Numbered from the stretch's first letter, positions 26,786-41,853 are shown. The stretch is 64,000 nt of DNA from Firmicutes bacterium ADurb.Bin248 (GCA_002069725.1 MWBW01000010.1:1046-65045), one strand, 5' to 3'. Translations and numbers: made by a program. Notes: generated from the letters alone by a model not told the origin.

Positions 26786-26861
26786 GCGCCCATAGCTCAG
26801 CGGATAGAGTGCCCGGCTACGAACCGGTAGGTCGCAGGTTCAAATCCTGCTGGGCGCGCCA
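26786..26861 (+). tRNA. tRNA-Arg (anticodon ACG)
   Basis: Hand-folded cloverleaf. Acceptor GCGCCCA/TGGGCGC. D arm GCTC-AGCGGATA-GAGT. Anticodon arm CCCGG-CTACGAA-CCGGT. T arm GCAGG-TTCAAAT-CCTGC. Discriminator G plus an encoded CCA. Confidence 0.9.
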
Positions 26862-28271: not shown

Positions 28272-28391
28272 ATCGCGTAGAACGCACTTAGAATCGGAGG
28301 ACGGAACGGGCAGCCGTCGCCCTTGTTAGGGGATGCGGGAACTGTCGCCCCGCCTGATTCTTAAACGCAGAACAGACGCTTCGGCGCCCGT

Positions 28392-29291: not shown

Positions 29292-29430
29292 CCCCTCCCC
29301 GCCTATTGTAACCGGGCCGGGGCGGCTTGGCAACCGCGCACGGGGCGGCGGCGGAAGGATCGCGAAACGGACGGCGAAAAAGCCCTCCGCATTTCGGGCG
29401 AAGGGCGCTTGAAAAGATTCCGGCCGGCGA

Positions 29431-30079: not shown

Positions 30080-30988
30080 TCAGACGCTCTCGTGCGGCGT
30101 GTAATAGCGCTCGTTCATGAAGCAGCGCGAGAAGCGGGAGGCCGTTTTGTTCCCCTTGCAGACCGCAAGCGTCAAATCGACCGTATACCATTTTTCGGTT
30201 TTGGAATCGTACGCGCTGTTCCAGGCGTGGTAGCCGTTGATCTTGGTGCTGTAGCCCTTGACAAGCTTGCACGGGATGCCCTGGCTGCGGCACATCGCGG
30301 CGAAAAGGGAGGCGAAATCGTAGCACACGCCTTTTTTGTTCGAAAGTATGCTCTCGGGGTTCGGCGTGTAGGCCGTGATCTGCCCGGAGATGACCTTGTT
30401 GGCGAAGTCGTAATCGTATTTGAAATTTTTTGCGATGTAATTGTAGATGGCGAGTATCTTCGCCTGATCGCCCTTGAGATCCTTGCACAGGGCGGCCGCC
30501 TTCCTGGCGATGGAGTCGTTCGCCGAGAAGGCGATTTCGGAAACGCTCCTGAGATACTGCGCATACTGCGGCGCAGCCGCGTTCGCCGCGCCCGCGGGTA
30601 CGGCGGAATCGCCCACGAGCGCCGTGAAGCTCTTCTGCGCGACGGTCACGTAGCTCGCGCCGACCTTCTTGAACAGCGCCGCGGAATAGCTGCCGCTGCC
30701 GCCGGTGAGCGCGAGCGAGAGGGTCATGCCCATTTTATAATCGTAGTAGGACCAGCTTCCGCCGTTAAAGCCCAGCCCCGCCTTCATCGCGGCGGAGGAG
30801 CCGTCGTCGTGAAAAAGGACGATGTACCCGAGCGAGGCCGTGGATGCGTCTATGCCCGCGCTCCGGCCCGCCGTCGAGAGCGAGCCGGAGGTGAGCGGCT
30901 CTCCCGCGGCGGCCGCGGGGGACGCAAGGGCGCTCAGCGCCAGGATCAGCGCGAGGGCAAGCGCGCCATGCCGGAACTGCTTTTTCAC
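30080..30988 (-). CDS. Secreted transglutaminase-like (Cys-His-Asp) protein
   Basis: GTG 30988 start (VKKQFRHGALALALILALSALASPAAAA signal peptide). Core KGVCYDFASLFAAMCRSQGIPCKLVKGY...GYHAWNSAY...WYTVDLT. Confidence 0.75.
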   Translation of the reverse strand: MKKQFRHGALALALILALSALASPAAAAGEPLTSGSLSTAGRSAGIDASTASLGYIVLFHDDGSSAAMKAGLGFNGGSWSYYDYKMGMTLSLALTGGSGSYSAALFKKVGASYVTVAQKSFTALVGDSAVPAGAANAAAPQYAQYLRSVSEIAFSANDSIARKAAALCKDLKGDQAKILAIYNYIAKNFKYDYDFANKVISGQITAYTPNPESILSNKKGVCYDFASLFAAMCRSQGIPCKLVKGYSTKINGYHAWNSAYDSKTEKWYTVDLTLAVCKGNKTASRFSRCFMNERYYTPHESV

Positions 30989-31434
30989 GTTTTCCGTCCT
31001 TTCTTTTCGCGAGGCGGCGCGCCGGGACCGGCCTATGCCTCTCAACTGCCCGAAAACGAAGAAAAAGCTCTCGTTTCGGCAACTGGCTGCCATGCGCTTT
31101 CGCGTTTAGGCCCTCTAGCTTTGCGGCCCCGCCTTTGGACGGGTGTGCCGGTTCGTCGGGATCTTCCGAACGGATATTCGATTCCGGCAACATTATAATT
31201 ACATCTACATAATATTGTCAAGTATAAAATTGTAACCGGGACGAAACGCGCCGTTTCCTGCCGAAAGCGCAGCCCCTGCGGCCGCGGCGCGGTTGCTCCG
31301 AGGTTGCGCGAGGGATGAAGCAAGGCGTCATGCGGCGCAACATTCGGCACAGGCCGTGCAATTCCACGCATTTCCGGAGGCGGAAGCCCAATTAGTTTAC
31401 AGAATATAGAAAAAAGGCGTCGAAAACGGCCTTT

Positions 31435-31467
31435 TGTAACCGCGCTGTAACTCCCTGTTGTTATAAT
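31435..31467 (+). promoter_or_regulatory. Promoter of the giant B-repeat gene: TGTAAC-N5-TGTAAC-N10-TATAAT
   Basis: TGTAAC at 31435-40 and 31446-51 (11-bp phasing), TATAAT at 31462-67. There is no TTGACA-like hexamer at the 17-bp position (ACCGCG). The same architecture occurs at 40722-40754. Confidence 0.55.
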
Positions 31468-31544
31468 TTCATCACAGAATCAGCCGAAACAGGCATATAT
31501 GCCCATAACGGGGCGCAAGCGCAAATACGTCGAGGGGGAAAACG

Positions 31545-34500
31545 ATGATGAAGAGGATCGGCTTGGCCAAGCTCCTGGCGCTCGCCATGACGCTGGTGAT
31601 GGTGTTTTCGGCGGTGAGCCCGGCGCTCGCCTGCGACATCAGCCAGACGACTATTTACTATTATAGAACCGCTGCGGAGAGCGCTTATGCCTCTTACGAT
31701 GTGGCTGCGGGCACCGGCACGAGCACAACGGTCAAGCACACGCTCAAGTCCGCGCCCACGCGCAACGGCTACACGTTCACCGGCTTCAACGTGTATGTCG
31801 GCAGCAAGACGGGTACGCTCATCAAGAGCAACGCCGCACCGGGCACATCGGTGAGCATACCGCTCACGCGCACGAGCACGGGCAAGAGCTGGCCCACGAT
31901 ACATGTGGTGGCCCAGTGGAGATCCAACTGCGTCACCTACGACGTGATCTTCAAGACCGTGCTCGTGGACGGCAAGGGCGGGCAGATCGGCAAGACGGGC
32001 TCCACGCTCGGCTATGCCGACATCGAGTACCTCAACAAGCAGCCCGACACCACGTTCCCGGCGATCCCGGTGACCGATCCCGACCCGGGCTATGTTTTCC
32101 TCGGCTGGTACACCTACAACGGTGCCACCTATACGAAGGTGACGTCGTTCCCGACCAAGATCGACAAGGATTACACCTTCTATGCCCGCTGGGAGGCCAA
32201 GCCCTACGTCGAGCGCAGCGTCTACACCCTCCATTATATAGGTAAGCCTTCCGACACGACCGGCGTCGTGTGGCCCGCGGACGTCGAGAAGCAGGCGTCC
32301 CCCGTCACAACGCTGGGCGTTGCCAGCAAGGTGGGCGCGACGTTCAACGGATGGAAGCTCAACGGCACGGGCGCGAACCGGACGACCCTCGCCGCTTCGG
32401 ACTACACAAAGAGTACGGCCGCGCCCGTCATCACCTACGACGCCGCCACGGACTCCTTCATCCGCACGACCGAGTACATCGCCAACGTCCACGGCGCGTT
32501 CGTCGCGCTCGAGGACGTGATTGAAAAATACTTCTCCGTTACTTACAAAATCGACCTCAACGGCGACGGCGACTATGCCGACGCGGGGGAGACGACGCTC
32601 GCCTTCGTCGACGCCCCGGTTATGCCCACCGCGGTCAATGCCGACGTTTCGGTGCCGGGCTACACCTTCGCGGGCTGGTATAAGAACGGCTCGGCCCCGA
32701 AGCTCACGACGCTCGCCTTCTCGAACTACGATCTCGACGCCTCCCGCACGCAGACCATCCCCGCGGGCCCCGGCACCGCCAAACGCATCAAGAATTACTA
32801 TTCGATCACGCTCGTGGGCACGCTGACCAAGAAGACCTGCCAGAAGAATCTCTACAACGTGACCTACACCGGCGATAAGGCCGGGGCCACCACCTGGCCC
32901 AACGACGTTGCCAACGCCACGAGCGCGCCCTCTCTCGCCGCGGACGCGACGAAGAACGGCTATACCTTCAACGGCTGGAAGATCGGCGGCAGCTCCGTCG
33001 GCTCCATCAACTGGAGCGCGAGCTACGTCACCGTCGCGAGCCGCGAATACTACGACCCGGCGCTCGGAAAGTTCGTCACGGAGACCACGCGCTCGGTCAC
33101 GGTGGTCGGCACCTTCACCAAGTGCGCCGACATCGAGCAGAAATACTACACGGTCGTCTACAAGATCGACCTCAACCTCGACGGCGTCGCCGAGGAAGTC
33201 GCCATGCCCGGCTATACCGTGAACAACGTCACCCCGATGCCCACGGGCGTCGCGGGCGCGCCCTCCGGCATCCCCGCCGGGTACAGCTTCATCGGATGGA
33301 GCGAGTCCGCGCCGCTCGCGCAGAGCGACTTCTCCTTCGTATCCGAAGAGACGGTCCCCAGCGGCACGCCCGGCGTGGGCGCTGTGCACAAGGTCTACTA
33401 TAAGCTGGCCATTACCGGCACGCTGAACAAGCTGACCTGCCAGAAGGACCTCTACAACGTGACTTACACCGGCGACAAGGCCGGGGCCACCACCTGGCCC
33501 AACGACGTCGCCAACGCCGCGAGCGCGCCTTCCCTCGCCGCGGACGCGACGCGGAACGGCTATACCTTCAGCGGCTGGAAGATCAACGGCAGCTCCGTCG
33601 GCTCCATCAACTGGAGCGCGAGCTACGTCACCGTCGCGAGCCGCGAATACTACGATCCGACGCTCGGAAAGTTCGTCACGGAGACCACGCGCTCGGTCAC
33701 GGTGGTCGGCACCTTCACCAAGTGCGCGGACATCGAGCAGAAATATTACACCGTCGTCTACAAGATCGACCTCAACCTCGACGGCGTCGCCGAGGAAGTC
33801 GCCATGCCCGGCTACACCGTGAACAACGTCACCCCGATGCCCACGGGCGTCGCGGGCGCGCCCTCCGGCATCCCCGCCGGATACAGCTTCATCGGATGGA
33901 GCGAGTCCGCGCCGCTCACGCAGAGCGACTTCTCCTTCGTATCCGAGGAGACGGTCCCCAGCGGCACGCCCGGCGTGGGCGCTGTGCACAAGGTCTACTA
34001 CAAGCTGGCCATTACCGGCACGCTGAACAAGCTGACCTGCCAGACGACGCTCTACAACGTGACTTACATCGGCGACAAGGCCGGGGCCACCACATGGCCC
34101 AACGACGTCGCCAACGCCGCGAGCGCGCCCTCCCTCGCCGCGGACGCGACGAGGAACGGCTACACGTTCAGCGGCTGGAAGATCGGCGGCAGCCCCGTCG
34201 GTTCCATCAGCTGGAACGCGAGCTACGTCACCGTCACGAGCCGCGAGTATTACGACGTTTCTCTCGGCAGATTCGTCACGGAGACCACGCGCTCGGTCAC
34301 GGTGGTCGGCACCTTCACCAAGTGCGCCGACATCGAGCAGAAATACTACACGGTCGTCTACAAGATCGACCTCAACCTCGACGGCGTCGCCGAGGAAGTC
34401 GCCATGCCCGGCTATACCGTGAACAACGTCACCCCGATGCCCACGGGCGTCGCGGGCGCGCCCTCCGGCATCCCCGCCGGGTACAGCTTCATCGGATGGA

Positions 34501-37500
34501 GCGAGTCCGCGCCGCTCGCGCAGAGCGACTTCTCCTTCGTATCCGAAGAGACGGTCCCCAGCGGCACGCCCGGCGTGGGCGCTGTGCACAAGGTCTACTA
34601 TAAGCTGGCCATTACCGGCACGCTGAACAAGCTGACCTGCCAGAAGGACCTCTACAACGTGACTTACACCGGCGACAAGGCCGGGGCCACCACCTGGCCC
34701 AACGACGTCGCCAACGCCGCGAGCGCGCCTTCCCTCGCCGCGGACGCGACGCGGAACGGCTATACCTTCAGCGGCTGGAAGATCAACGGCAGCTCCGTCG
34801 GCTCCATCAACTGGAGCGCGAGCTACGTCACCGTCGCGAGCCGCGAATACTACGATCCGACGCTCGGAAAGTTCGTCACGGAGACCACGCGCTCGGTCAC
34901 GGTGGTCGGCACCTTCACCAAGTGCGCGGACATCGAGCAGAAATATTACACCGTCGTCTACAAGATCGACCTCAACCTCGACGGCGTCGCCGAGGAAGTC
35001 GCCATGCCCGGCTACACCGTGAACAACGTCACCCCGATGCCCACGGGCGTCGCGGGCGCGCCCTCCGGCATCCCCGCCGGATACAGCTTCATCGGATGGA
35101 GCGAATCCGCGCCGCTCGCGCAGAGCGACTTTTCCTTCGTATCCGAGGAGACGGTCCCCAGCGGTACGCCCGGCGTGGGCGCGGTGCGCAAGGTCTACTA
35201 TAAGCTCGCCGTCACCGGCACGCTGAACAAGCTGACCTGCCAGACGACGCTCTACAACGTGACCTACACCGGCGACAAGGCCGGGGCCACCACCTGGCCC
35301 AACGACGTCGCCAACGCCACGAGCGCGCCCTCCCTCGCCGCGGACGCGACGCGGAACGGCTACACCTTCAGCGGCTGGAAGATCGGCGGCAGCCCCATCG
35401 GCTCCATCAACTGGAACGCGAGCTACGTCACCGTCACGAGCCGCGAGTACTACGACGTTTCTCTCGGCAAATTCGTCACGGAGACCACGCGCTCGGTCAC
35501 GGTGGTCGGCACCTTCACCAAGTGCGCCGACATCGAGAAGGAATACTACACCGTCGTTTACCGGATCGACCTCAACCGGGACGGCGTCGACGAGATCGTC
35601 AACATGATGGGCTACAGCGTCAGCGAAGTCGAAACCATGCCCACGGGCGTGGCGGGTTCGCCCATCATCCCCAACGGCTATACCTTCGGCGGGTGGGACA
35701 AGGACGCGCCTCTGGCGAAGGGCGACTTCACCGTTGAGCGCCAGGGAACGACCCCGAGCACGCAGCCCGGCGTGGGCGCGGTGCACAGCGTGTATTATAC
35801 GCTCACCATCAAAGGCACGCTGGACAAGCAGACCCTTGCCAAGACCGTCTACACCGTTCTTTACACCGGCGAGAAAGCCGGAGCGACCACCTGGCCCAGC
35901 GACGTGGTCGACGCCGAGACCCCGCCGACCCTCGCCGCAGACGCGACGAAGAACGGCTATACCTTCAACGGCTGGAAGATCAACGGCAACTCCGCCGGCT
36001 CGCTCAACTGGAGCGCGGGCTACGTCGTGAGCACGACCGACGCGGAGTACTACGACGCGGGCCTCAAGAAGTTCGTGACGGTGACGCACAAGACCATCAC
36101 GGTCACGGGCGCGTTCACCAAGTGCGAGGACGTCGAGGAGAAATACTTCTCCGTCACCTATAAGATCGACCTCAACGGCGACGGCGACTATGCCGACGAG
36201 AACGAGACCGTCAACGCCTACGTCGAGGCATCCCCCATGCCCACCGCGGTCAGCGCCGAGCTCGCGCTCGACGGTTATACCTTCGCGGGCTGGTTCAAGC
36301 AGGGCACGGACACGAAGCTCACCGCGCTCGCCTTCACGGATTACACTTTCGACCGGACGGTGACCGTACCCGGCGGCGTGGGCACGCCCAAGACCATCAA
36401 GAACTACTACGTCATCACGCTGACGGGCACGCTGAGCAAGCAAACGCTCGCCAAGACCGACTACTCGGTGACCTACACGGGCGACAAGGCCGGCGCGACC
36501 TTCTGGCCGGCGGACGTCGTGCGGGCCGCGAGCGCGCCCTCCATCGCCGCAGACGCGACGAAGAACGGCTATACCTTCAGCGGCTGGAGCCCCGCCTCGC
36601 TCGACTGGAACGCGGGCTACGTCGACGTGCAGACCGATTCCGAGTATTATGATGCGAGCCTCAAGAAGTTCGTGACGGTGACGCACAAGACCATCACGGT
36701 CACGGGCGCGTTCGTCAAGTGCGAGGACGTCGAGGAGAAGTATTTCTCCGTCACCTACGAGATCGACCTCAACGGCGACGGCGACTATGCCGACGCGGGC
36801 GAAACCGATCCCGCATACGTCGAGACGTTCCCCATGCCTGCCTCCGTCAGGCCGGACGTTTCCAAGGACGGCTATACCTTCCACGGCTGGTATAAGAAGG
36901 GCACGTCGGAGAAGCTCAGCGCGCTCGCCTTCGCGAACTACGATTACGTGCGCACCGTCACCGTGCCGGCAGGCGCGGGCACGCCGCAGATCACCAAGCA
37001 CTATTACGCCGTCACGCTCAGGGGTTCGCTCGTCAAGAGAGTCTGCCAGCAGACCTATTACAGCGTGAGCTACACCGGCGACAAGGAAGGCGCCGCCACC
37101 TGGCCCAACGACGTTGTGAACGCAGCGAGCGCCCCGTCCCTCGCCGCCGACGCGACGAAGAACGGCTTCGACTTCACCGGCTGGAAGATCAACGGCAGCC
37201 CGGTATCCTCGCTCAACTGGTATGCGAGCTACGTGACGGTGACGAGCCTGCCCGAGGAATACGACCCCGAGAGCGGCATGTTCATCACGAAGATCCACCG
37301 CTCCATCACCGTCGAGGGCCGCTTCGTCAAGTGTCCGGATATCGAGCAGGCCTTCTACTCGGTCATTTATAAGATCGACCTCAATCTGGACGGCGTCGCC
37401 GAAGAGGTCAACATGCTCGGCTACACCGTCACGAACGTCACCAAGATGCCCACGGGCGTCGCGGGCTCGCCCGACATCCCCGCCGGCTACAGCTTCAACG

Positions 37501-40460
37501 GGTGGGATCAGGCGCCGCCGCTCGAACTGGGCGATTTCTCCGTGACCTCCGAGGGCACGACGCCCAGCACGCTGCCCGGCGTGGGCGCGATCCACACGGT
37601 GCATTACCTGTGCAGCATCAAGGGCGCCATGACCAAGAACGAGCTGAACGTGGATGTGTACACCGCGCGCTATAACGTGCGCAACGACACCGCCGCGACG
37701 GTCGGCACGTACGACGCGGAGCAGACGGGCTCGGCCCCGCTGAGCGCGCAGGCGCTGCCCTCCGTGACGAAGGGCTACTCGATCCACGGCTGGTACGTGC
37801 AGCTCGACGAGAGCAACACGCCTTACGGCGGGGGCGACGCGCTCCCCTGGGGCTTTGCGAGCGTCAGCGTCGATGAAAAGCTCGAGAAGCACGGCAGCGC
37901 CTGGTACTGGGTGACCTACCACTACTATGCGCTCGGCCTTTCCGCGGTTGTCAGCGAGAACGAGCACGGCCGGGCGGAAGAATACAACCTCAGCTACAGC
38001 ATCGCGGGCGGCCCGTACACCGATCCGACCAGCGGCGCCGCGCTCAGCGCAAGCGGCATACCCGGCGACGTCTTTGCCTCGCCGACCATGCCCGCGCTCG
38101 GAGGCAATCCCTCGATGAAGGGTCACTCGTTCCAAGGCTGGATGCAGGGCGGCGCCGCGATCGGCTCGAGCGCGGACATCGACTGGACCCAAACCACGCG
38201 GCAGGACTACGACGAAGCAAACGACCGCATCATCGACGTGACCATCTATACCGCTGCGGTTTCGGGCGGCTTTACGATGAACCAGGGCGAGCGGACGAGC
38301 TACAACCTCGCCTACTCCTTCGCCAACGAGCCTTATCAGACGCCCGACGGCCTGAACCTCACCATCGGCAACAGGCCGGCCGACGTGAACGGCGCTTCAA
38401 CCCCGCCCGCCCTCGCGGGCGCGCCCTCGGCGCAGGGCCATACCTTCACCGGCTGGACGCAGAACGGCGCCGCCGTGAGCGACGCGACGCTCGCCTGGGG
38501 CAGCGCGGCCGTCAGCTACGAATACGACGCGGACAACGACAGATTCGTTCGGGTCTCGACCTACAGCGCGGCGGTCGTCGGCGACTTCACGCGCAACACC
38601 GGCGAGGAAACCCTGTATAACCTGACTTACACCATCGACGGCGAGCCGTATACGGACCCCGAGGGCAGGACGCTCAGCATAGGCAACCTCCCCGCGAACG
38701 TGAACGACTCCACGACCCGGCCGGGCCTCGCGGGCGCGCCGACGCTCGACGGCCACTCCTTCTCGGGCTGGAAGCAGGCGGGCAATCCCGTGGACGACGC
38801 GAGCCTCGACTTCGGCACGCCGGGCGTCGGCTACCGCTACGACGAAGCAGGCGACCGCTACGTCATGGTCTACAACTACTCCGCGGCCGTCTCCGGCTCC
38901 TTCACGCTCAACGAGATCGTCGAGAAGGAGATCTGGAACCTCACCTACACCGGCGACAAGGATCTCGCCGACCCGGGCACTTGGCCCGACGACCTCACCA
39001 ACCAGGCCAGCGAGCCCGCGCTGACCGGCCTGACGCCGGCCAAACGCGGCTACACCTTCGGCGGCTGGAAGCAGGGCGGCGCGTCCGTGACGGACATCGC
39101 CTGGTCCGCGACGCTGAGCTACGCGCTGGGCGCGGGCAACCGCTTCGTAAAGACCACCACGTATGAGGCGGCCATCGAAGGCAGGCTCACCATGAAGGGC
39201 GGCGTCGACGAGTATGTCTACATCGTGGACTACACCGTGCACGGCGGCTCGAACGATTACAGCCACCTCGACGTCAACGTCACGAATCCTCCCGCGCTCC
39301 CGACCATCGAACCCGAGCCCAGCGAGAGCGGCAAGGTGTTCGGCGGCTGGAACCCCGGTTCGCTCGACTGGGACGGCACCCCGGCCGTGCCGGGTGAACC
39401 GCGCTTCGACGAGACGCTCGACAAGTGGGTCACGCCCTACACCAAGAAGATCGACGTCACGGGCAGCTTCGGAGAGGTCGGGCATGTGTACGTCTACGAG
39501 CTGAGCTTCACCGGCCCCTCCGGCGCGACGTTGCCCGGCATGAAGAGCGGCACCTCCGTGCAGACCATAGAGGGCGAGACCGCCTCGCTCGACGGCCAGC
39601 GCTTCACGGGCTGGAGCCCCTCGAGCATCGGCGAGAGCGACTACACGGAGAACGAATCCCGCAAGACCGTTTCGGGCGACGGCCTGACCGTTACGCATTA
39701 CATGGAGGCCAGCACGCAGGCGCAGTTCGTCCCGACGGAAGGCCGCGAGCACTATACGCTGCATTATGAGATCGTGGGCAGCGTGCCCGGCCAGCCCGCC
39801 AACCCGCCGGACGAGACGGGCACAAGCCCCATCACGCCCAGCGCGCCGGTGAGCCTCGAGGGCTACAACTTCTCCGGCTGGTCCACCCCGGCGTGGGGCG
39901 TCGTGAACGTCACCAGCGAGATCGTCGACGGCGTCGATGTTTCCACGACCTGGTACGAAGCCACGGTCATCGGCTCCTTCACCGACATGCAGATCGTCGA
40001 GGACATCCGCTATTCGCTGCTCTATCAGGGCTACGTCAGCGGCGTCACCAACTGGCCCGGCGACGTGATCGACTCGACCATACCGCCCGCGCTCTCGGGC
40101 AGCCCGTACCTGTCCGGCTATCAGTTCAACGGCTGGGCGCCCGGTACGCTCGACTGGTCGAAGGCGAGCGCCAGCGTCGGCACGCAGGTCGTCACGCCCG
40201 AGGGGGGCGCGCCCTACATACTCAGGACCACGACCTACACGCTGATCGTCACGGCCAGCTTCTCGGGCTACTACCCGCCGCCGACGTCCTATCCCACGTA
40301 CGGCCCCGTGCCCACGCCGACCAAGCCGCCTCTGGGCACGCCGCAAACTGGCAACACCGGCCTGATCATCTTCTTCGCGGTGTTCTCGCTGATCACGGTC
40401 ATCTTCACGGCGAGCCTGTTCATCCGCAAGAAGATGCGCGCCATCGAGGAAGAGGATTGA
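31545..40460 (+). CDS. Giant (2971 aa) cell-surface protein built of InlB B-repeat / Listeria-Bacteroides-repeat modules with a C-terminal xPQTG sorting signal
   Basis: RBS GAGGGGG. Signal peptide MMKRIGLAKLLALAMTLVMVFSAVSPALA. Dozens of (P)x(K/R)xGY(T/S)FxGW motifs. The C-terminus is PLGTPQTGNTGLIIFFAVFSLITVIFTASLFIRKKMR. Confidence 0.9.
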   Translation: MMKRIGLAKLLALAMTLVMVFSAVSPALACDISQTTIYYYRTAAESAYASYDVAAGTGTSTTVKHTLKSAPTRNGYTFTGFNVYVGSKTGTLIKSNAAPGTSVSIPLTRTSTGKSWPTIHVVAQWRSNCVTYDVIFKTVLVDGKGGQIGKTGSTLGYADIEYLNKQPDTTFPAIPVTDPDPGYVFLGWYTYNGATYTKVTSFPTKIDKDYTFYARWEAKPYVERSVYTLHYIGKPSDTTGVVWPADVEKQASPVTTLGVASKVGATFNGWKLNGTGANRTTLAASDYTKSTAAPVITYDAATDSFIRTTEYIANVHGAFVALEDVIEKYFSVTYKIDLNGDGDYADAGETTLAFVDAPVMPTAVNADVSVPGYTFAGWYKNGSAPKLTTLAFSNYDLDASRTQTIPAGPGTAKRIKNYYSITLVGTLTKKTCQKNLYNVTYTGDKAGATTWPNDVANATSAPSLAADATKNGYTFNGWKIGGSSVGSINWSASYVTVASREYYDPALGKFVTETTRSVTVVGTFTKCADIEQKYYTVVYKIDLNLDGVAEEVAMPGYTVNNVTPMPTGVAGAPSGIPAGYSFIGWSESAPLAQSDFSFVSEETVPSGTPGVGAVHKVYYKLAITGTLNKLTCQKDLYNVTYTGDKAGATTWPNDVANAASAPSLAADATRNGYTFSGWKINGSSVGSINWSASYVTVASREYYDPTLGKFVTETTRSVTVVGTFTKCADIEQKYYTVVYKIDLNLDGVAEEVAMPGYTVNNVTPMPTGVAGAPSGIPAGYSFIGWSESAPLTQSDFSFVSEETVPSGTPGVGAVHKVYYKLAITGTLNKLTCQTTLYNVTYIGDKAGATTWPNDVANAASAPSLAADATRNGYTFSGWKIGGSPVGSISWNASYVTVTSREYYDVSLGRFVTETTRSVTVVGTFTKCADIEQKYYTVVYKIDLNLDGVAEEVAMPGYTVNNVTPMPTGVAGAPSGIPAGYSFIGWSESAPLAQSDFSFVSEETVPSGTPGVGAVHKVYYKLAITGTLNKLTCQKDLYNVTYTGDKAGATTWPNDVANAASAPSLAADATRNGYTFSGWKINGSSVGSINWSASYVTVASREYYDPTLGKFVTETTRSVTVVGTFTKCADIEQKYYTVVYKIDLNLDGVAEEVAMPGYTVNNVTPMPTGVAGAPSGIPAGYSFIGWSESAPLAQSDFSFVSEETVPSGTPGVGAVRKVYYKLAVTGTLNKLTCQTTLYNVTYTGDKAGATTWPNDVANATSAPSLAADATRNGYTFSGWKIGGSPIGSINWNASYVTVTSREYYDVSLGKFVTETTRSVTVVGTFTKCADIEKEYYTVVYRIDLNRDGVDEIVNMMGYSVSEVETMPTGVAGSPIIPNGYTFGGWDKDAPLAKGDFTVERQGTTPSTQPGVGAVHSVYYTLTIKGTLDKQTLAKTVYTVLYTGEKAGATTWPSDVVDAETPPTLAADATKNGYTFNGWKINGNSAGSLNWSAGYVVSTTDAEYYDAGLKKFVTVTHKTITVTGAFTKCEDVEEKYFSVTYKIDLNGDGDYADENETVNAYVEASPMPTAVSAELALDGYTFAGWFKQGTDTKLTALAFTDYTFDRTVTVPGGVGTPKTIKNYYVITLTGTLSKQTLAKTDYSVTYTGDKAGATFWPADVVRAASAPSIAADATKNGYTFSGWSPASLDWNAGYVDVQTDSEYYDASLKKFVTVTHKTITVTGAFVKCEDVEEKYFSVTYEIDLNGDGDYADAGETDPAYVETFPMPASVRPDVSKDGYTFHGWYKKGTSEKLSALAFANYDYVRTVTVPAGAGTPQITKHYYAVTLRGSLVKRVCQQTYYSVSYTGDKEGAATWPNDVVNAASAPSLAADATKNGFDFTGWKINGSPVSSLNWYASYVTVTSLPEEYDPESGMFITKIHRSITVEGRFVKCPDIEQAFYSVIYKIDLNLDGVAEEVNMLGYTVTNVTKMPTGVAGSPDIPAGYSFNGWDQAPPLELGDFSVTSEGTTPSTLPGVGAIHTVHYLCSIKGAMTKNELNVDVYTARYNVRNDTAATVGTYDAEQTGSAPLSAQALPSVTKGYSIHGWYVQLDESNTPYGGGDALPWGFASVSVDEKLEKHGSAWYWVTYHYYALGLSAVVSENEHGRAEEYNLSYSIAGGPYTDPTSGAALSASGIPGDVFASPTMPALGGNPSMKGHSFQGWMQGGAAIGSSADIDWTQTTRQDYDEANDRIIDVTIYTAAVSGGFTMNQGERTSYNLAYSFANEPYQTPDGLNLTIGNRPADVNGASTPPALAGAPSAQGHTFTGWTQNGAAVSDATLAWGSAAVSYEYDADNDRFVRVSTYSAAVVGDFTRNTGEETLYNLTYTIDGEPYTDPEGRTLSIGNLPANVNDSTTRPGLAGAPTLDGHSFSGWKQAGNPVDDASLDFGTPGVGYRYDEAGDRYVMVYNYSAAVSGSFTLNEIVEKEIWNLTYTGDKDLADPGTWPDDLTNQASEPALTGLTPAKRGYTFGGWKQGGASVTDIAWSATLSYALGAGNRFVKTTTYEAAIEGRLTMKGGVDEYVYIVDYTVHGGSNDYSHLDVNVTNPPALPTIEPEPSESGKVFGGWNPGSLDWDGTPAVPGEPRFDETLDKWVTPYTKKIDVTGSFGEVGHVYVYELSFTGPSGATLPGMKSGTSVQTIEGETASLDGQRFTGWSPSSIGESDYTENESRKTVSGDGLTVTHYMEASTQAQFVPTEGREHYTLHYEIVGSVPGQPANPPDETGTSPITPSAPVSLEGYNFSGWSTPAWGVVNVTSEIVDGVDVSTTWYEATVIGSFTDMQIVEDIRYSLLYQGYVSGVTNWPGDVIDSTIPPALSGSPYLSGYQFNGWAPGTLDWSKASASVGTQVVTPEGGAPYILRTTTYTLIVTASFSGYYPPPTSYPTYGPVPTPTKPPLGTPQTGNTGLIIFFAVFSLITVIFTASLFIRKKMRAIEEED
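32838..35837 (+). repeat. Five in-frame ~600-bp tandem copies (200-aa double B-repeat supermodule) inside the giant gene
   Basis: The C-Q-(K/T)-x-LYNVTY(T/I)GDKAGATTWPNDVANA module restarts at 32838, 33438, 34038, 34638 and 35238. More diverged copies follow at about 35838, 36447 and 37043. Segment 33072-33904 is base-for-base identical to 34272-35104. Confidence 0.95.
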
Positions 40461-40551: not shown

Positions 40552-40587
40552 ACGGGGGCGGCCGCAAGGCCGCCCCCGTCTCTTTTT
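40552..40587 (+). terminator. Rho-independent terminator after the giant gene
   Basis: ACGGGGGCGGCC-GCAA-GGCCGCCCCCGT followed by CTCTTTTT. It is preceded by a second hairpin, GGAGCGGCC-GAAA-GGCCGCTCC, at 40487-40508. Confidence 0.75.
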
Positions 40588-40721
40588 GGCCGCGCGGCAG
40601 GACGCGGCGCGAAAAACTTCGCGTCGACGTTTTTTTCAGCTTCCCTCGAGTTATGGGAACATTAATAATTTACCGTCATTATATGTCGAATGGGTAAATT
40701 ATAGAATGTTTTTTACGATTT

Positions 40722-40754
40722 TGTAACCGTGGCGTAACTGGGCGCGGTTATAAT
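40722..40754 (+). promoter_or_regulatory. Promoter of the small B-repeat gene: TGTAAC-N5-CGTAAC-N10-TATAAT
   Basis: TGTAAC at 40722-27, CGTAAC at 40733-38, TATAAT at 40749-54. The block TTTTGTAACCG...GTAACT...GTTATAATTTCA is shared with 31432-31471 (31 of 40 positions). Confidence 0.55.
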
Positions 40755-40836
40755 TTCAGGCGATAGGTGCCAATATAACCATGGAAAACTAATTTGGCCC
40801 ACAGGGCATAATAAAATCAAATGAGGGGGATCAATC

Positions 40837-41853
40837 ATGAAAACCAAAAGCATCTTCAAAAAGTTGGCGGCGCTCGCCGTCGTCCTCGCGCTCGTGCTGA
40901 GTCTCGGGGGCGCCGCACTGGCCGCGCCGGCGACGGTGACGGTTAACTTTAACGCGAACGGCGGCTCTCCGACACCGGCGTCGATAGAGGTTCCCGTGAC
41001 CGGAAGCGGCTGGACAGCAAGAATTACATTCAGCTTACCCACCGAGGCGGAATGCTCCAGGCCCGGGTATGCGCTGCTTTACTGGAATCACGGCGTCCTG
41101 CCCGGCGAGCCTGGCGATACGATGACCATTTTTCTGTTTGACAACTATTCCGCGCGGACCGTTACCGCACAGTGGATCGCCGCGGAGGATCATTACATCC
41201 TCAAATATGACATCACGTCCACGATCGACGGTCAGCCTGCCGATCCCCCGGATGAGCATTCTGACGCTCCCATCGTACCCGACGCCGAGGCATCCATGCC
41301 GGGTTATTATTTCTCCGGTTGGGCGCCTAATCCTCCCGACTGGAAGCTCATCAGCAGGGAACTTGTGGGCAGGGGAGACGACACCCACATGGTGCGCTTC
41401 TACGAGGCCACCGTCGAAGGCTTATTCACCGAGCTGGAGCCTGTTTACAGGACGACGTACACCCTCATCTTCGAGAACAAGCAGCCCGGCGTCGTATTCT
41501 GGCCGAATGATACCATAGGCTCCGAAACCATACCCTCGTATCCGGGAGACCCGGTGCTGGCGGGCTATCGGTTCGTCGGTTGGGACCCCGCTACGCTCAA
41601 GTGGGACAAAGCCAAGGTGACGGTCACCTACGATGTCATAACTCCGGAGGGGGATGACGCTCCGTATTTGCTGATCACCACGAATCGTGCGCTGACGCTC
41701 ACAGCCGTGTTCGAGGGCATTCCGACGCCGGCGACCCCGATTGAAGCGCCGCAGACGGGCGACGTCAACTATCTGGGCTACGCCATGCTGCTGCTCGGGC
41801 TCTCCGCGGGCCTCGCAGGCTTCGTGTTCGTGCGCAGCCGCAGGAAGAATTGA
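40837..41853 (+). CDS. Cell-surface InlB B-repeat protein (338 aa) with APQTGD sorting signal
   Basis: Signal peptide MKTKSIFKKLAALAVVLALVLSLGGAALA. PGYYFSGW and AGYRFVGW modules. C-terminus IEAPQTGDVNYLGYAMLLLGLSAGLAGFVFVRSRRKN. Its C-terminal third parallels the end of the giant protein (HY(T/I)L.Y(E/D)I...GQPA(N/D)PPDE...). Confidence 0.88.
   Translation: MKTKSIFKKLAALAVVLALVLSLGGAALAAPATVTVNFNANGGSPTPASIEVPVTGSGWTARITFSLPTEAECSRPGYALLYWNHGVLPGEPGDTMTIFLFDNYSARTVTAQWIAAEDHYILKYDITSTIDGQPADPPDEHSDAPIVPDAEASMPGYYFSGWAPNPPDWKLISRELVGRGDDTHMVRFYEATVEGLFTELEPVYRTTYTLIFENKQPGVVFWPNDTIGSETIPSYPGDPVLAGYRFVGWDPATLKWDKAKVTVTYDVITPEGDDAPYLLITTNRALTLTAVFEGIPTPATPIEAPQTGDVNYLGYAMLLLGLSAGLAGFVFVRSRRKN

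What the first reader, a model, noticed from the sequence alone, without database searches (positions are those of the whole stretch)
31431..31471. Both B-repeat genes share a promoter lacking a -35 box but carrying 11-bp-phased (T/C)GTAAC direct repeats: a probable response-regulator-dependent regulon
31432-31471 (TTTTGTAACCGCGCTGTAACTCCCTGTTGTTATAATTTCA) and 40719-40758 (TTTTGTAACCGTGGCGTAACTGGGCGCGGTTATAATTTCA) match at 31 of 40 positions. The conserved parts are two hexamers, TGTAAC and (T/C)GTAAC, spaced 11 bp start-to-start, and a TATAAT exactly 10 bp after the second hexamer. The 17-bp position holds ACCGCG or ACCGTG, which is not -35-like.

Direct repeats phased at one helical turn and replacing the -35 are the classic layout of OmpR/PhoB-type activator sites such as Pho boxes. 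A third TTGTAACCG occurs at 31229-31237. No response regulator is encoded in this window, so the regulator is unidentified.
Basis: partly seen in the sequence, partly recalled or inferred. Interest (0 to 1): 0.55.

Follow-up and report, generated by a model that had tools for sequence, protein, structure and literature searches.

The report
Response-regulator-type promoters of two adhesin genes
Two giant or variable cell-surface protein genes of an uncultured digester Clostridia bacterium each carry the textbook promoter layout of a two-component response regulator, which matches the binding consensus of the cell-wall regulator WalR; this is a conserved but ordinary kind of control element.

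Summary
TGTAAC-N5-YGTAAC-N10-TATAAT occurs exactly twice in the window, at 31435-31467 and 40722-40754 on the + strand, against 0 expected by chance. Each copy lies about 80 nt upstream of a signal-peptide B-repeat (Flg_new) gene, and neither has a -35-like hexamer.

- **Conservation.** Orthologous loci were reached through the neighbouring transglutaminase gene, without using the motif. In four other species the hexamers, their spacing and the -10 are kept (95% pairwise identity). Spacers and flanks have randomised (45-52%).
- **Geometry.** The layout is identical to CiaR-activated promoters (TTTAAG-N5-TTTAAG-N10-TATAAT). It is also the Pho-box layout I recall for E. coli.
- **Sequence.** The repeat fits the WalR/VicR consensus TGTWAH-N5-TGTWAH.
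- **Linkage to walRK.** In a scan of species-representative genomes, the same architecture sits directly after a walRK-like operon in 17 Clostridia. It also precedes other large surface proteins (Flg_new, MucBP, SLH/S8).
- **Not WalR-specific.** The same architecture serves pst genes in Campylobacterota and ABC-transporter modules with their own regulator in Bacilli MAGs. The regulator here therefore cannot be named with certainty.

WalR is the leading candidate. This is a new member of a known kind, of modest interest.

The parts
31435..31451 (+). Site 1: direct repeat TGTAAC-CGCGC-TGTAAC, a perfect match to TGTWAH-N5-TGTWAH. It would span about -40 to -24 of the predicted gene 1 promoter.
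   Evidence: Invariant in orthologues L150, L149 and L152; L153 and L066 have CGTAAC in the second half-site.
31459..31467 (+). Extended -10 of gene 1 (TGtTATAAT). There is no -35: ACCGCG lies 17 bp upstream. Predicted TSS is about 31474 (inferred).
   Evidence: The G two bases before the -10 hexamer is kept in every orthologue, and TTGnTAT is kept in the g1-type promoters. No other + strand sigma-70-like site exists in this intergenic region.
31410..31416 (+). A-tract about 20-27 nt upstream of site 1, in the position of an UP element.
   Evidence: The A-run is conserved in g1-type promoters of five species although the flanks are unalignable. Function is inferred.
31545..40460 (+). Gene 1: a 2971-aa secreted protein with Listeria-Bacteroides (Flg_new) repeats. 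It contains at least 8 tandem 600-nt units.
40722..40738 (+). Site 2: direct repeat TGTAAC-CGTGG-CGTAAC, 11 of 12 to the WalR consensus. The C-start second half-site resembles the footprinted S. mutans gbpB site TGTAAT-N5-CGTAAT.
   Evidence: PMC4168254 Table 1. Conserved in L007, L011, L012, L149 and L153.
40749..40754 (+). -10 TATAAT of gene 2. There is no -35: ACCGTG lies 17 bp upstream. Predicted TSS is about 40760 (inferred).
40552..40636 (+). Two intrinsic terminators after gene 1, so gene 2 needs its own promoter.
   Evidence: stems at 40552-40579 and 40605-40626, each followed by a T-run.
40837..41853 (+). Gene 2: a 338-aa B-repeat protein with a signal peptide, a PQTG sorting-like motif and a C-terminal TM plus basic tail. 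It is monocistronic, because the next gene is on the minus strand.
31231..31247 (+). Site 3: imperfect repeat TGTAAC-CGGGA-CGAAAC. It lies 9 nt upstream of the -35 of the divergent minus-strand promoter.
   Evidence: 3 matches at up to 1 mismatch against 0.10 expected. The first half TGTAAY is conserved 8-9 nt from the -35 in L149, L150, L152, L153 and L154. The second half varies.
31187..31221 (-). Divergent consensus sigma-70 promoter (TTGACA-N18-TATAAT). Its -10 is embedded in TGTAAT-TATAA-TGTTGC, which is one mismatch from the WalR consensus.
   Evidence: The repeat is a perfect TGTWAH-N5-TGTWAH in L152 and L154. Binding is speculative.
31075..31159 (-). c-di-GMP-I riboswitch leading the divergent transglutaminase-like gene (30080-30988; called as 302 aa).
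   Evidence: 67 bits, E = 6e-11.

Best explanation
Each B-repeat gene has its own housekeeping-sigma promoter with a strong -10 and no -35. I infer that transcription depends on an activator.

- **Proposed mechanism.** A phosphorylated dimer of an OmpR/PhoB-family response regulator binds head-to-tail to the two TGTAAC hexamers. These lie 11 bp apart, on one face of the helix, and end exactly 10 bp before the -10. From there the dimer would stand in for the missing -35 contact and recruit RNA polymerase, as PhoB does at Pho boxes and CiaR at its promoters.
- **Likely regulator.** The most likely regulator is the organism's WalR (YycF/VicR) orthologue. That would tie expression of these wall-anchored surface proteins to the cell-envelope homeostasis system. 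A paralogous OmpR-family regulator is the main alternative.
- **Neighbouring gene.** The same regulator may also act on the divergent transglutaminase gene controlled by a c-di-GMP riboswitch, whose promoter carries further TGTAAY hexamers.
- **Shown.** The motif, its non-random occurrence, its conservation, its geometry, and its linkage to walRK-like operons elsewhere.
- **Inferred.** Binding, activation, the TSS, and the identity of the regulator.
For: 1. **Non-random in the window.** The motif has 2 matches against 0 expected. The WalR-type consensus has 2 against 0.04.
2. **A promoter is needed here.** Gene 1 is divergent from its neighbour, and gene 2 follows two terminators. No other + strand sigma-70-like site exists in either intergenic region.
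3. **Phylogenetic footprint.** Eleven promoters from at least six species were compared. The 18 motif positions show 95% mean pairwise identity, against 52% for spacers and 45% for flanks. Loci L149, L150, L152 and L153 were found through the neighbouring gene, not through the motif. In L149 the g2-type 5'UTR is entirely different, yet the motif and its spacing persist.
4. **Geometry.** It equals CiaR promoters, TTTAAG-N5-TTTAAG-N10-TATAAT (PMC3091779). Strict spacing between Pho box and core promoter is noted for PhoB (PMC10294691).
5. **Sequence.** It fits TGTWAH-N5-TGTWAH.
6. **Genome scan.**
   - 64 of 120 hits are Clostridia-class Firmicutes.
   - In 17 of them the motif lies 1.8-2.1 kb after a regulator 53-62% identical to B. 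subtilis WalR, with one kinase gene between.
   - In the two loci checked, the best NCBIfam hits are YycF and WalK.
   - These promoters carry up to four phased TGTAA repeats.
7. **Downstream genes in Clostridia.**
   - 36 of 54 encode signal-peptide-like proteins, against 25% of control ORFs (p = 5e-9).
   - They include Flg_new, MucBP and SLH/S8 surface proteins, and also a transglycosylase, an M23 peptidase and MreB.
   - A SpaA/collagen-binding adhesin turned up in the separate metagenome scan.
   - This is a cell-envelope theme typical of WalR regulons (PMC9210968).
Against: - **No direct evidence.** There is no binding, TSS or expression evidence.
- **Not WalR-specific.** The same architecture precedes phosphate-transport genes with a nearby regulator in Campylobacterota. 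It also precedes ABC-transporter ATPase genes with a nearby, only about 34% WalR-like regulator in Bacilli MAGs.
- **Different flanking bases.** The walRK-adjacent promoters read TGTAACA...TGTAACA(A/T)T. The window promoters and all 8 large surface-protein promoters read TGTAAC(C/T)G...YGTAACT (p = 1e-6). This may indicate a different regulator.
- **WalRK not confirmed here.** Its presence in this organism could not be checked.
- **Weak activator requirement at gene 1.** Its extended -10 might allow some activator-independent transcription.
- **Possible recombination.** Part of the conservation among g2 orthologues could reflect recombination of a 5' cassette (promoter, UTR and signal peptide) rather than selection on the site alone.
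Confidence: 0.65

Rival explanations
1. The mechanism is the same, but the regulator is not WalR. It is instead a dedicated or lineage-specific OmpR-family regulator, or less likely PhoP, with the extended specificity TTTGTAACYG-N3-YGTAACT that controls large surface adhesins.
For: - All 8 large surface-protein hits in Clostridia have TGTAACC as the first half-site, against 5 of 46 other hits.
- The 11 window-clade promoters share TTTGTAACyG and GTAACT, unlike the walRK-adjacent TGTAACA type.
- Several regulator subfamilies use this architecture.
- E. coli PhoB binds TGTAACCCGTATGTAACA.
Against: - No such regulator gene lies in the window or next to any of the surface-protein loci held.
- None of the 64 Clostridia-class hits showed a phosphate-transport family in the Pfam scans run on their downstream genes, which argues against PhoP.
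- The flank difference is post hoc and may partly reflect the higher G+C of those genomes.
Confidence: 0.3
2. These are constitutive promoters driven by the -10 (extended at gene 1) plus an upstream A-tract. The hexamers would be bound by a repressor or another non-response-regulator factor, or by nothing.
For: Gene 1 has TGnTATAAT and a conserved A-tract at the UP-element position. WalR-family sites overlapping promoters can be repressive (PMC4168254 discussion).
Against: - Gene 2 and its orthologues lack the TG extension.
- Exact N5 and N10 spacing is preserved over deep divergence, and is the spacing of known activated promoters.
- Absence of any -35 makes a pure repressor site unlikely.
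- The hexamers are the most conserved positions in the region.
Confidence: 0.12
3. The similarity is only shared ancestry. A promoter, UTR and signal-peptide cassette is copied between paralogous surface-protein genes by duplication or recombination, with no regulatory meaning in the repeats.
For: - In L012 the first 174 nt (promoter, UTR and start of the CDS) are 86-91% identical to the window, while the rest of the gene is 34-74% identical.
- Several contigs break inside this region.
- The proteins are hypervariable.
Against: - Gene 1 and gene 2 promoters differ at 6 of 10 spacer positions and in most of the UTR, yet keep the hexamers.
- The L149 g2-type promoter has an unrelated UTR with the same motif.
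- Unrelated genes in other Clostridia families carry the same architecture.
Confidence: 0.05
4. TGTAAC is the -35 of an ECF-sigma promoter (B. subtilis SigX-type TGTAAC-N17-CGAC, from my own knowledge). Alternatively, on the other strand, GTTACA is the -35 of an antisense promoter.
For: TGTAAC resembles ECF -35 boxes. At site 2 the minus strand reads GTTACA-N18-TATAAT, 10 of 12 matches, and this is conserved in L007 (read from A1).
Against: No CGTC- or CGAC-like -10 lies 16-17 nt after either hexamer at either site. At site 1 the minus-strand spacing would be 26 nt. Neither idea explains the duplicated hexamer or the fixed N10 to TATAAT.
Confidence: 0.03

Closest known systems
WalR/VicR (YycF) boxes of Firmicutes, consensus TGTWAH-N5-TGTWAH
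   Same: Site 1 is a perfect match and site 2 matches 11 of 12. Its CGTAAC second half resembles the footprinted S. mutans gbpB site. The targets are exported cell-envelope proteins. The identical architecture sits next to walRK-like operons in 17 Clostridia.
   Different: Binding is untested. The base after each hexamer is C/T here, not the A favoured by S. mutans VicR and by the walRK-adjacent sites. Published WalR sites occur at varied positions and on either strand, whereas here the position is fixed at N10 from the -10.
CiaR-dependent promoters of streptococci (TTTAAG-N5-TTTAAG-N10-TATAAT)
   Same: The geometry is exactly the same: hexamer, N5, hexamer, N10, -10 (PMC3091779).
   Different: The hexamer sequence differs (TTTAAG against TGTAAC). 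CiaR is a Streptococcus regulator.
Pho boxes of PhoB (E. coli), and the TTGTAACC-N3-TTGTAACC sites upstream of pst-type genes in Campylobacterota found here
   Same: Both have 11-bp phased direct repeats upstream of a good -10. By my own recollection, the E. coli Pho box replaces the -35 and lies 10 bp from the -10. PhoB binds TGTAAC-type repeats in vivo. The Campylobacterota sites even share TTGTAACC(G).
   Different: The downstream genes here are adhesins, not phosphate-acquisition genes. None of the Clostridia hits whose downstream genes were scanned showed a phosphate-transport family.

Membership tests
OmpR/PhoB-family class II activated promoter | Two direct-repeat half-sites phased at about one helical turn | tested here: met
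   Hexamers are 11 bp start to start at both sites. The phasing is invariant in 11 orthologous promoters.
OmpR/PhoB-family class II activated promoter | The site abuts or replaces the -35 at a fixed distance from a recognisable -10 | tested here: met
   N10 to TATAAT at both sites, with ACCGCG or ACCGTG at the -35 position. The spacing is the same as in CiaR promoters.
OmpR/PhoB-family class II activated promoter | Transcription depends on the phosphorylated regulator, with the TSS about 7 nt after the -10 | not testable with these tools
   No expression, TSS or binding data are available.
WalR/VicR box | Match to TGTWAH-N5-TGTWAH | tested here: met
   Site 1 matches 12 of 12 and site 2 matches 11 of 12. 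Consensus from PMC4168254 and PMC9210968.
WalR/VicR box | The organism encodes WalRK, and WalR binds the site | not testable with these tools
   There is no regulator in the window. The statement that WalRK occurs in all Firmicutes comes from the PMC9210968 abstract.
WalR/VicR box | Targets belong to cell-envelope metabolism or surface proteins | tested here: met
   Both genes encode signal-peptide B-repeat proteins, and gene 2 has a PQTG anchor motif.
WalR/VicR box | Same extended half-site as sites linked to walRK in Clostridia (TGTAACA...TGTAACAWT) | tested here: not met
   Window-clade promoters read TGTAACYG...YGTAACT, against TGTAACA at 13 of 17 first halves and 17 of 17 second halves in walRK-adjacent promoters.
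Pho box / Pho regulon | Downstream genes serve phosphate acquisition | tested here: not met
   The downstream genes are Flg_new surface proteins. Phosphate-transport hits were found in Campylobacterota and not among the Clostridia genes scanned.
ECF-sigma promoter (TGTAAC-type -35) | A CGTC- or CGAC-like -10 lying 16-17 nt downstream of the -35 | tested here: not met
   Read from the sequence. TTGT or CGGT follows the first hexamer at N17, and TCAT or TCAG follows the second.

The most novel reading that the evidence does not exclude
A so far uncharacterised OmpR-family regulator, not WalR, recognises the extended site TTTGTAACYG-N3-YGTAACT. It controls a conserved 'adhesin regulon' of giant, hypervariable, wall-anchored proteins (Flg_new, MucBP, SpaA-type) across gut and digester Clostridia. 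In this clade it is wired together with c-di-GMP riboswitch control of the divergent transglutaminase gene, forming an attachment/lifestyle switch.
Probability: 0.2. Interest if true: 0.6.

Novelty: new member of a known kind. Interest (0 to 1): 0.35.

Why it matters
If correct, it gives a sequence-level handle on how uncultured Clostridia switch on their largest and most variable surface adhesins. A position weight matrix built from the 11 promoters could enumerate the regulon in MAGs. The walRK-adjacent promoters would serve as an internal positive control for WalR specificity in a class where WalR targets are poorly defined. In C. difficile the direct regulon is still unclear (PMC9210968). 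The mechanism itself is textbook, so it would not change how two-component regulation is understood.

Tried and rejected
- **Gene 1 homologue search.** The first 400 aa of gene 1 returned no hit at E <= 1e-10, so gene 1 orthologues were reached through the neighbouring transglutaminase gene instead.
- **Metagenome scan.** The strict pattern gave only 9 loci, one of them from the source species. It added a human-gut adhesin example but no paralogues.
- **Genome scan limit.** The total count and the regulon in the source genome could therefore not be obtained.
- **Viral contigs.** These gave 7 scattered hits, which were not pursued.
- **Known RNA families.** Rfam found nothing in either 5'UTR, even at E <= 1, so the conserved g2-type UTR is not a known riboswitch.
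- **Tandem repeats.** Tandem Repeats Finder missed the 600-nt repeats because of its period limit. The repeat finder found them.
- **ECF-sigma reading.** Rejected because no matching -10 exists.
- **Antisense promoter reading.** Rejected as a general explanation because its spacing fails at site 1.
- **TTGTAACCG 9-mer with one mismatch.** This is not enriched. Only the exact 9-mer is.

Full report
**1. What is in the sequence**

The two 40-mers are exactly as quoted and agree at 31 of 40 positions.
- The pattern TGTAAC-N5-YGTAAC-N10-TATAAT occurs at 31435-31467 and 40722-40754, both on the + strand. It occurs nowhere else in the 64 kb, even with two mismatches allowed. Dinucleotide-preserving shuffles gave none.
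- The looser WalR-type pattern TGTWAH-N5-YGTWAH also finds only these two sites (0.04 expected).
- With one mismatch, a third site appears at 31231-31247 (TGTAACCGGGACGAAAC).
- The exact 9-mer TTGTAACCG occurs four times against 0.23 expected. With one mismatch it is not enriched.
- The window is about 64% G+C, which makes these A+T-rich motifs rarer still.

**2. Context**

Downstream of each motif, after about 77-82 nt and a GAGGGGG Shine-Dalgarno sequence, lies a gene for a signal-peptide protein with Listeria-Bacteroides (Flg_new) repeats.
- Gene 1 is 31545-40460 and encodes 2971 aa.
- Gene 2 is 40837-41853 and encodes 338 aa, with a PQTG motif, a C-terminal TM segment and a basic tail.

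Both genes need their own promoter.
- Gene 1 is divergent from its neighbour.
- Gene 2 follows two intrinsic terminators and is monocistronic.
- The consensus scan found no other + strand sigma-70-like promoter in either intergenic region.
- Gene 1 has an extended -10 (TGtTATAAT). Gene 2 does not.

The divergent neighbour of gene 1 is a transglutaminase-like gene. It is led by a c-di-GMP-I riboswitch (31159-31075, 67 bits) and a perfect minus-strand TTGACA-N18-TATAAT promoter.

No response regulator is encoded in the window. The organism is the digester MAG 'Firmicutes bacterium ADurb.Bin248' / GCA_029553945.1.

**3. Conservation**

Gene 2 orthologues all keep the promoter:
- L011, the same species. 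The neighbouring protein is 98% identical, yet the surface protein is only 67% identical.
- L007, a sister species. Fourfold-degenerate sites are about 78-81% identical.
- L012, which has different synteny and a protein 51% identical.

In L012 the first 174 nt (promoter, UTR and start of the CDS) are 86-91% identical to the window. The remainder is 34-74% identical.

For a test that does not depend on the motif, I took orthologues of the transglutaminase neighbour and fetched their loci.
- L150 (80% aa), L149 (76%), L152 (74%) and L153 (67%) all retain a divergent giant Flg_new gene.
- All four carry TTTGTAAC(C/T)G-N3-YGTAACT...TATAAT. In L150 the -10 is TATGAT.
- In L149 and L152 the surrounding intergenic DNA is unalignable.
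- L149 and L153 also have the second, g2-type gene with the motif. In L149 the 5'UTR is completely different and the -10 is TATACT.
- L154 (64%) and L155 (55%) lack the Flg_new neighbour and lack the motif.

Over 11 promoters, mean pairwise identity is 0.95 at the 18 motif positions, 0.52 in the spacers and 0.45 elsewhere. Further near-invariant bases are TT before the first hexamer, G two bases after it, T after the second hexamer, and G two bases before the -10. There is also an upstream A-tract. This is a clean phylogenetic footprint of the two hexamers, their phasing and the -10.

**4. The same architecture elsewhere**

Of the 120 loci, 64 are Clostridia-class Firmicutes, 19 are Bacilli, 17 are Campylobacterota and 20 are other taxa.

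*Next to walRK-like operons*
- In 17 Clostridia the motif lies 1.8-2.1 kb downstream of a regulator 53-62% identical to B. subtilis WalR.
- In the two loci checked, exactly one kinase gene lies between them. The best NCBIfam hits are the YycF equivalog (339 and 328 bits; cut-off 340) and WalK over its full length.
- The motif there drives a small secreted protein of 145-280 aa.
- It is preceded by one or two further TGTAA repeats at 11-bp phasing.

*In front of other surface and cell-wall genes in Clostridia*
- Other hits precede Flg_new proteins (L066, L076, L118), MucBP proteins (L069, L122) and an SLH plus subtilase protein (L050).
- They also precede peptidoglycan-related genes: a transglycosylase, an M23 peptidase and MreB.
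- A SpaA/collagen-binding adhesin in human-gut contigs came from the separate metagenome scan (L141).
- 36 of 54 downstream ORFs look exported or membrane-anchored by a simple heuristic, against 25% of control ORFs in the same loci (p = 5e-9).

*Used by other regulators outside Clostridia*
- In Campylobacterota the motif precedes solute-binding and permease genes. The five checked by Pfam fit phosphate-type transport, and several have an OmpR-family regulator nearby. They are most simply read as Pho boxes.
- In low-G+C Bacilli MAGs it precedes an ABC-transporter ATPase gene, with a nearby regulator only about 34% identical to WalR.

The architecture is therefore a general device of OmpR/PhoB-family regulators, and the hexamer TGTAAC is shared by several of them.

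**5. Comparison with the literature**
- The WalR consensus is TGTWAH-N5-TGTWAH. S. mutans VicR footprints include TGTAAT-N5-CGTAAT at gbpB and sites overlapping promoters (PMC4168254).
- The same consensus was used for C. difficile, whose WalR regulon is rich in exported proteins (PMC9210968).
- CiaR-activated promoters were searched with TTTAAG, distance five, TTTAAG, distance ten, TATAAT (PMC3091779). This is the same geometry as here.
- E. coli PhoB ChIP-seq sites include TGTAACCCGTATGTAACA. PhoB activation needs strict spacing to the core promoter (PMC10294691).

**6. Interpretation**

The best-supported reading is that both genes have activator-dependent promoters. A response-regulator dimer on the direct repeat would replace the -35 contact.

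WalR is the leading candidate for three reasons:
- the sites match its consensus;
- the targets are cell-envelope proteins;
- the identical architecture is conserved next to walRK-like operons across Clostridia families.

Against a firm WalR assignment:
- Other subfamilies use the same hexamer.
- The walRK-adjacent sites read TGTAACA...TGTAACAWT, whereas the window clade and all eight large surface-protein promoters in Clostridia read TGTAAC(C/T)...TGTAAC(T/C/A) (8 of 8 against 5 of 46 for the C after the first hexamer; p = 1e-6, post hoc).
- WalRK could not be sought in the source genome.

A dedicated 'adhesin' regulator therefore remains a live alternative.

**7. Rejected readings**
- Constitutive promoters.
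- A repressor site.
- Pure cassette inheritance.
- An ECF-sigma promoter.
- An antisense promoter.

Each is less consistent with the spacing conservation, the missing -35, the divergent UTRs, or the lack of a matching -10 (see the rival explanations).

**8. Verdict**

It is a new member of a known kind of regulatory element, of modest interest.

Noticed in passing
window 31075-31159 (-); L149, L152, L153, L154: A c-di-GMP-I riboswitch leads the divergent transglutaminase-like gene. The orthologous loci carry two tandem aptamers where the window has one (alignment A3; sequences).
   Followed up: partly
window 31187-31203 (-) and 31231-31236: The -10 of the riboswitch gene's perfect sigma-70 promoter is embedded in TGTAAT-TATAA-TGTTGC, which is a perfect WalR-type repeat in L152 and L154. 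A conserved TGTAAY lies 8-9 nt upstream of its -35 in every orthologue. The same regulator may act on both divergent genes.
   Followed up: partly
window 40837-41853; L011, L007, L012: Gene 2 is hypervariable. It is 67% identical in a strain whose neighbouring gene is 98% identical. Its 5' end (promoter, UTR, signal peptide) and 3' anchor are conserved while the middle has diverged. This pattern fits diversifying selection or cassette recombination.
   Followed up: partly
window 32744-37573: Gene 1 contains at least 8 tandem 600-nt (200-aa) repeats, up to 94% identical. The same gene is 2371 aa in a metagenome contig of the same species (L001), a difference of three units. This suggests copy-number variation or assembly collapse.
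   Followed up: partly
L023, L037, L043, L055, L057, L059, L079, L081, L091-L093, L101, L107, L110, L114, L126, L127: In many Clostridia a walRK-like operon is followed by a small secreted protein gene of 145-280 aa. Some of these hit Pfam Glucodextran_B. Its promoter has up to four 11-bp-phased TGTAA repeats plus TATAAT. This looks like an uncharacterised conserved WalR target.
   Followed up: partly
window 40698-40727 (-): On the minus strand the first half-site of site 2 reads GTTACA, followed by N18 and TATAAT (10 of 12 to sigma-70 consensus). This is conserved in L007. It may be an antisense or divergent promoter towards the 3' end of gene 1, and no ORF is evident there.
   Followed up: no
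window 29306-29314: A fourth exact TTGTAACCG (as TTGTAACCGGG, like site 3) overlaps the -10 (TACAAT) of a minus-strand promoter-like site upstream of the YdcZ-family exporter gene. It has no second half-site.
   Followed up: partly
L140 versus L141-L143, L146, L147 (human-gut contigs): The SpaA/collagen-binding adhesin gene downstream of the motif starts ATGAAAGG in five contigs but ATGAAAAAGG in one. The latter shifts the frame into an early stop. This is either a poly-A slippage phase switch or an assembly error.
   Followed up: no
window 28290-28361 (+) and 26786-26858 (+): A skipping-rope RNA (58.7 bits) and a tRNA lie upstream of the region.
   Followed up: no
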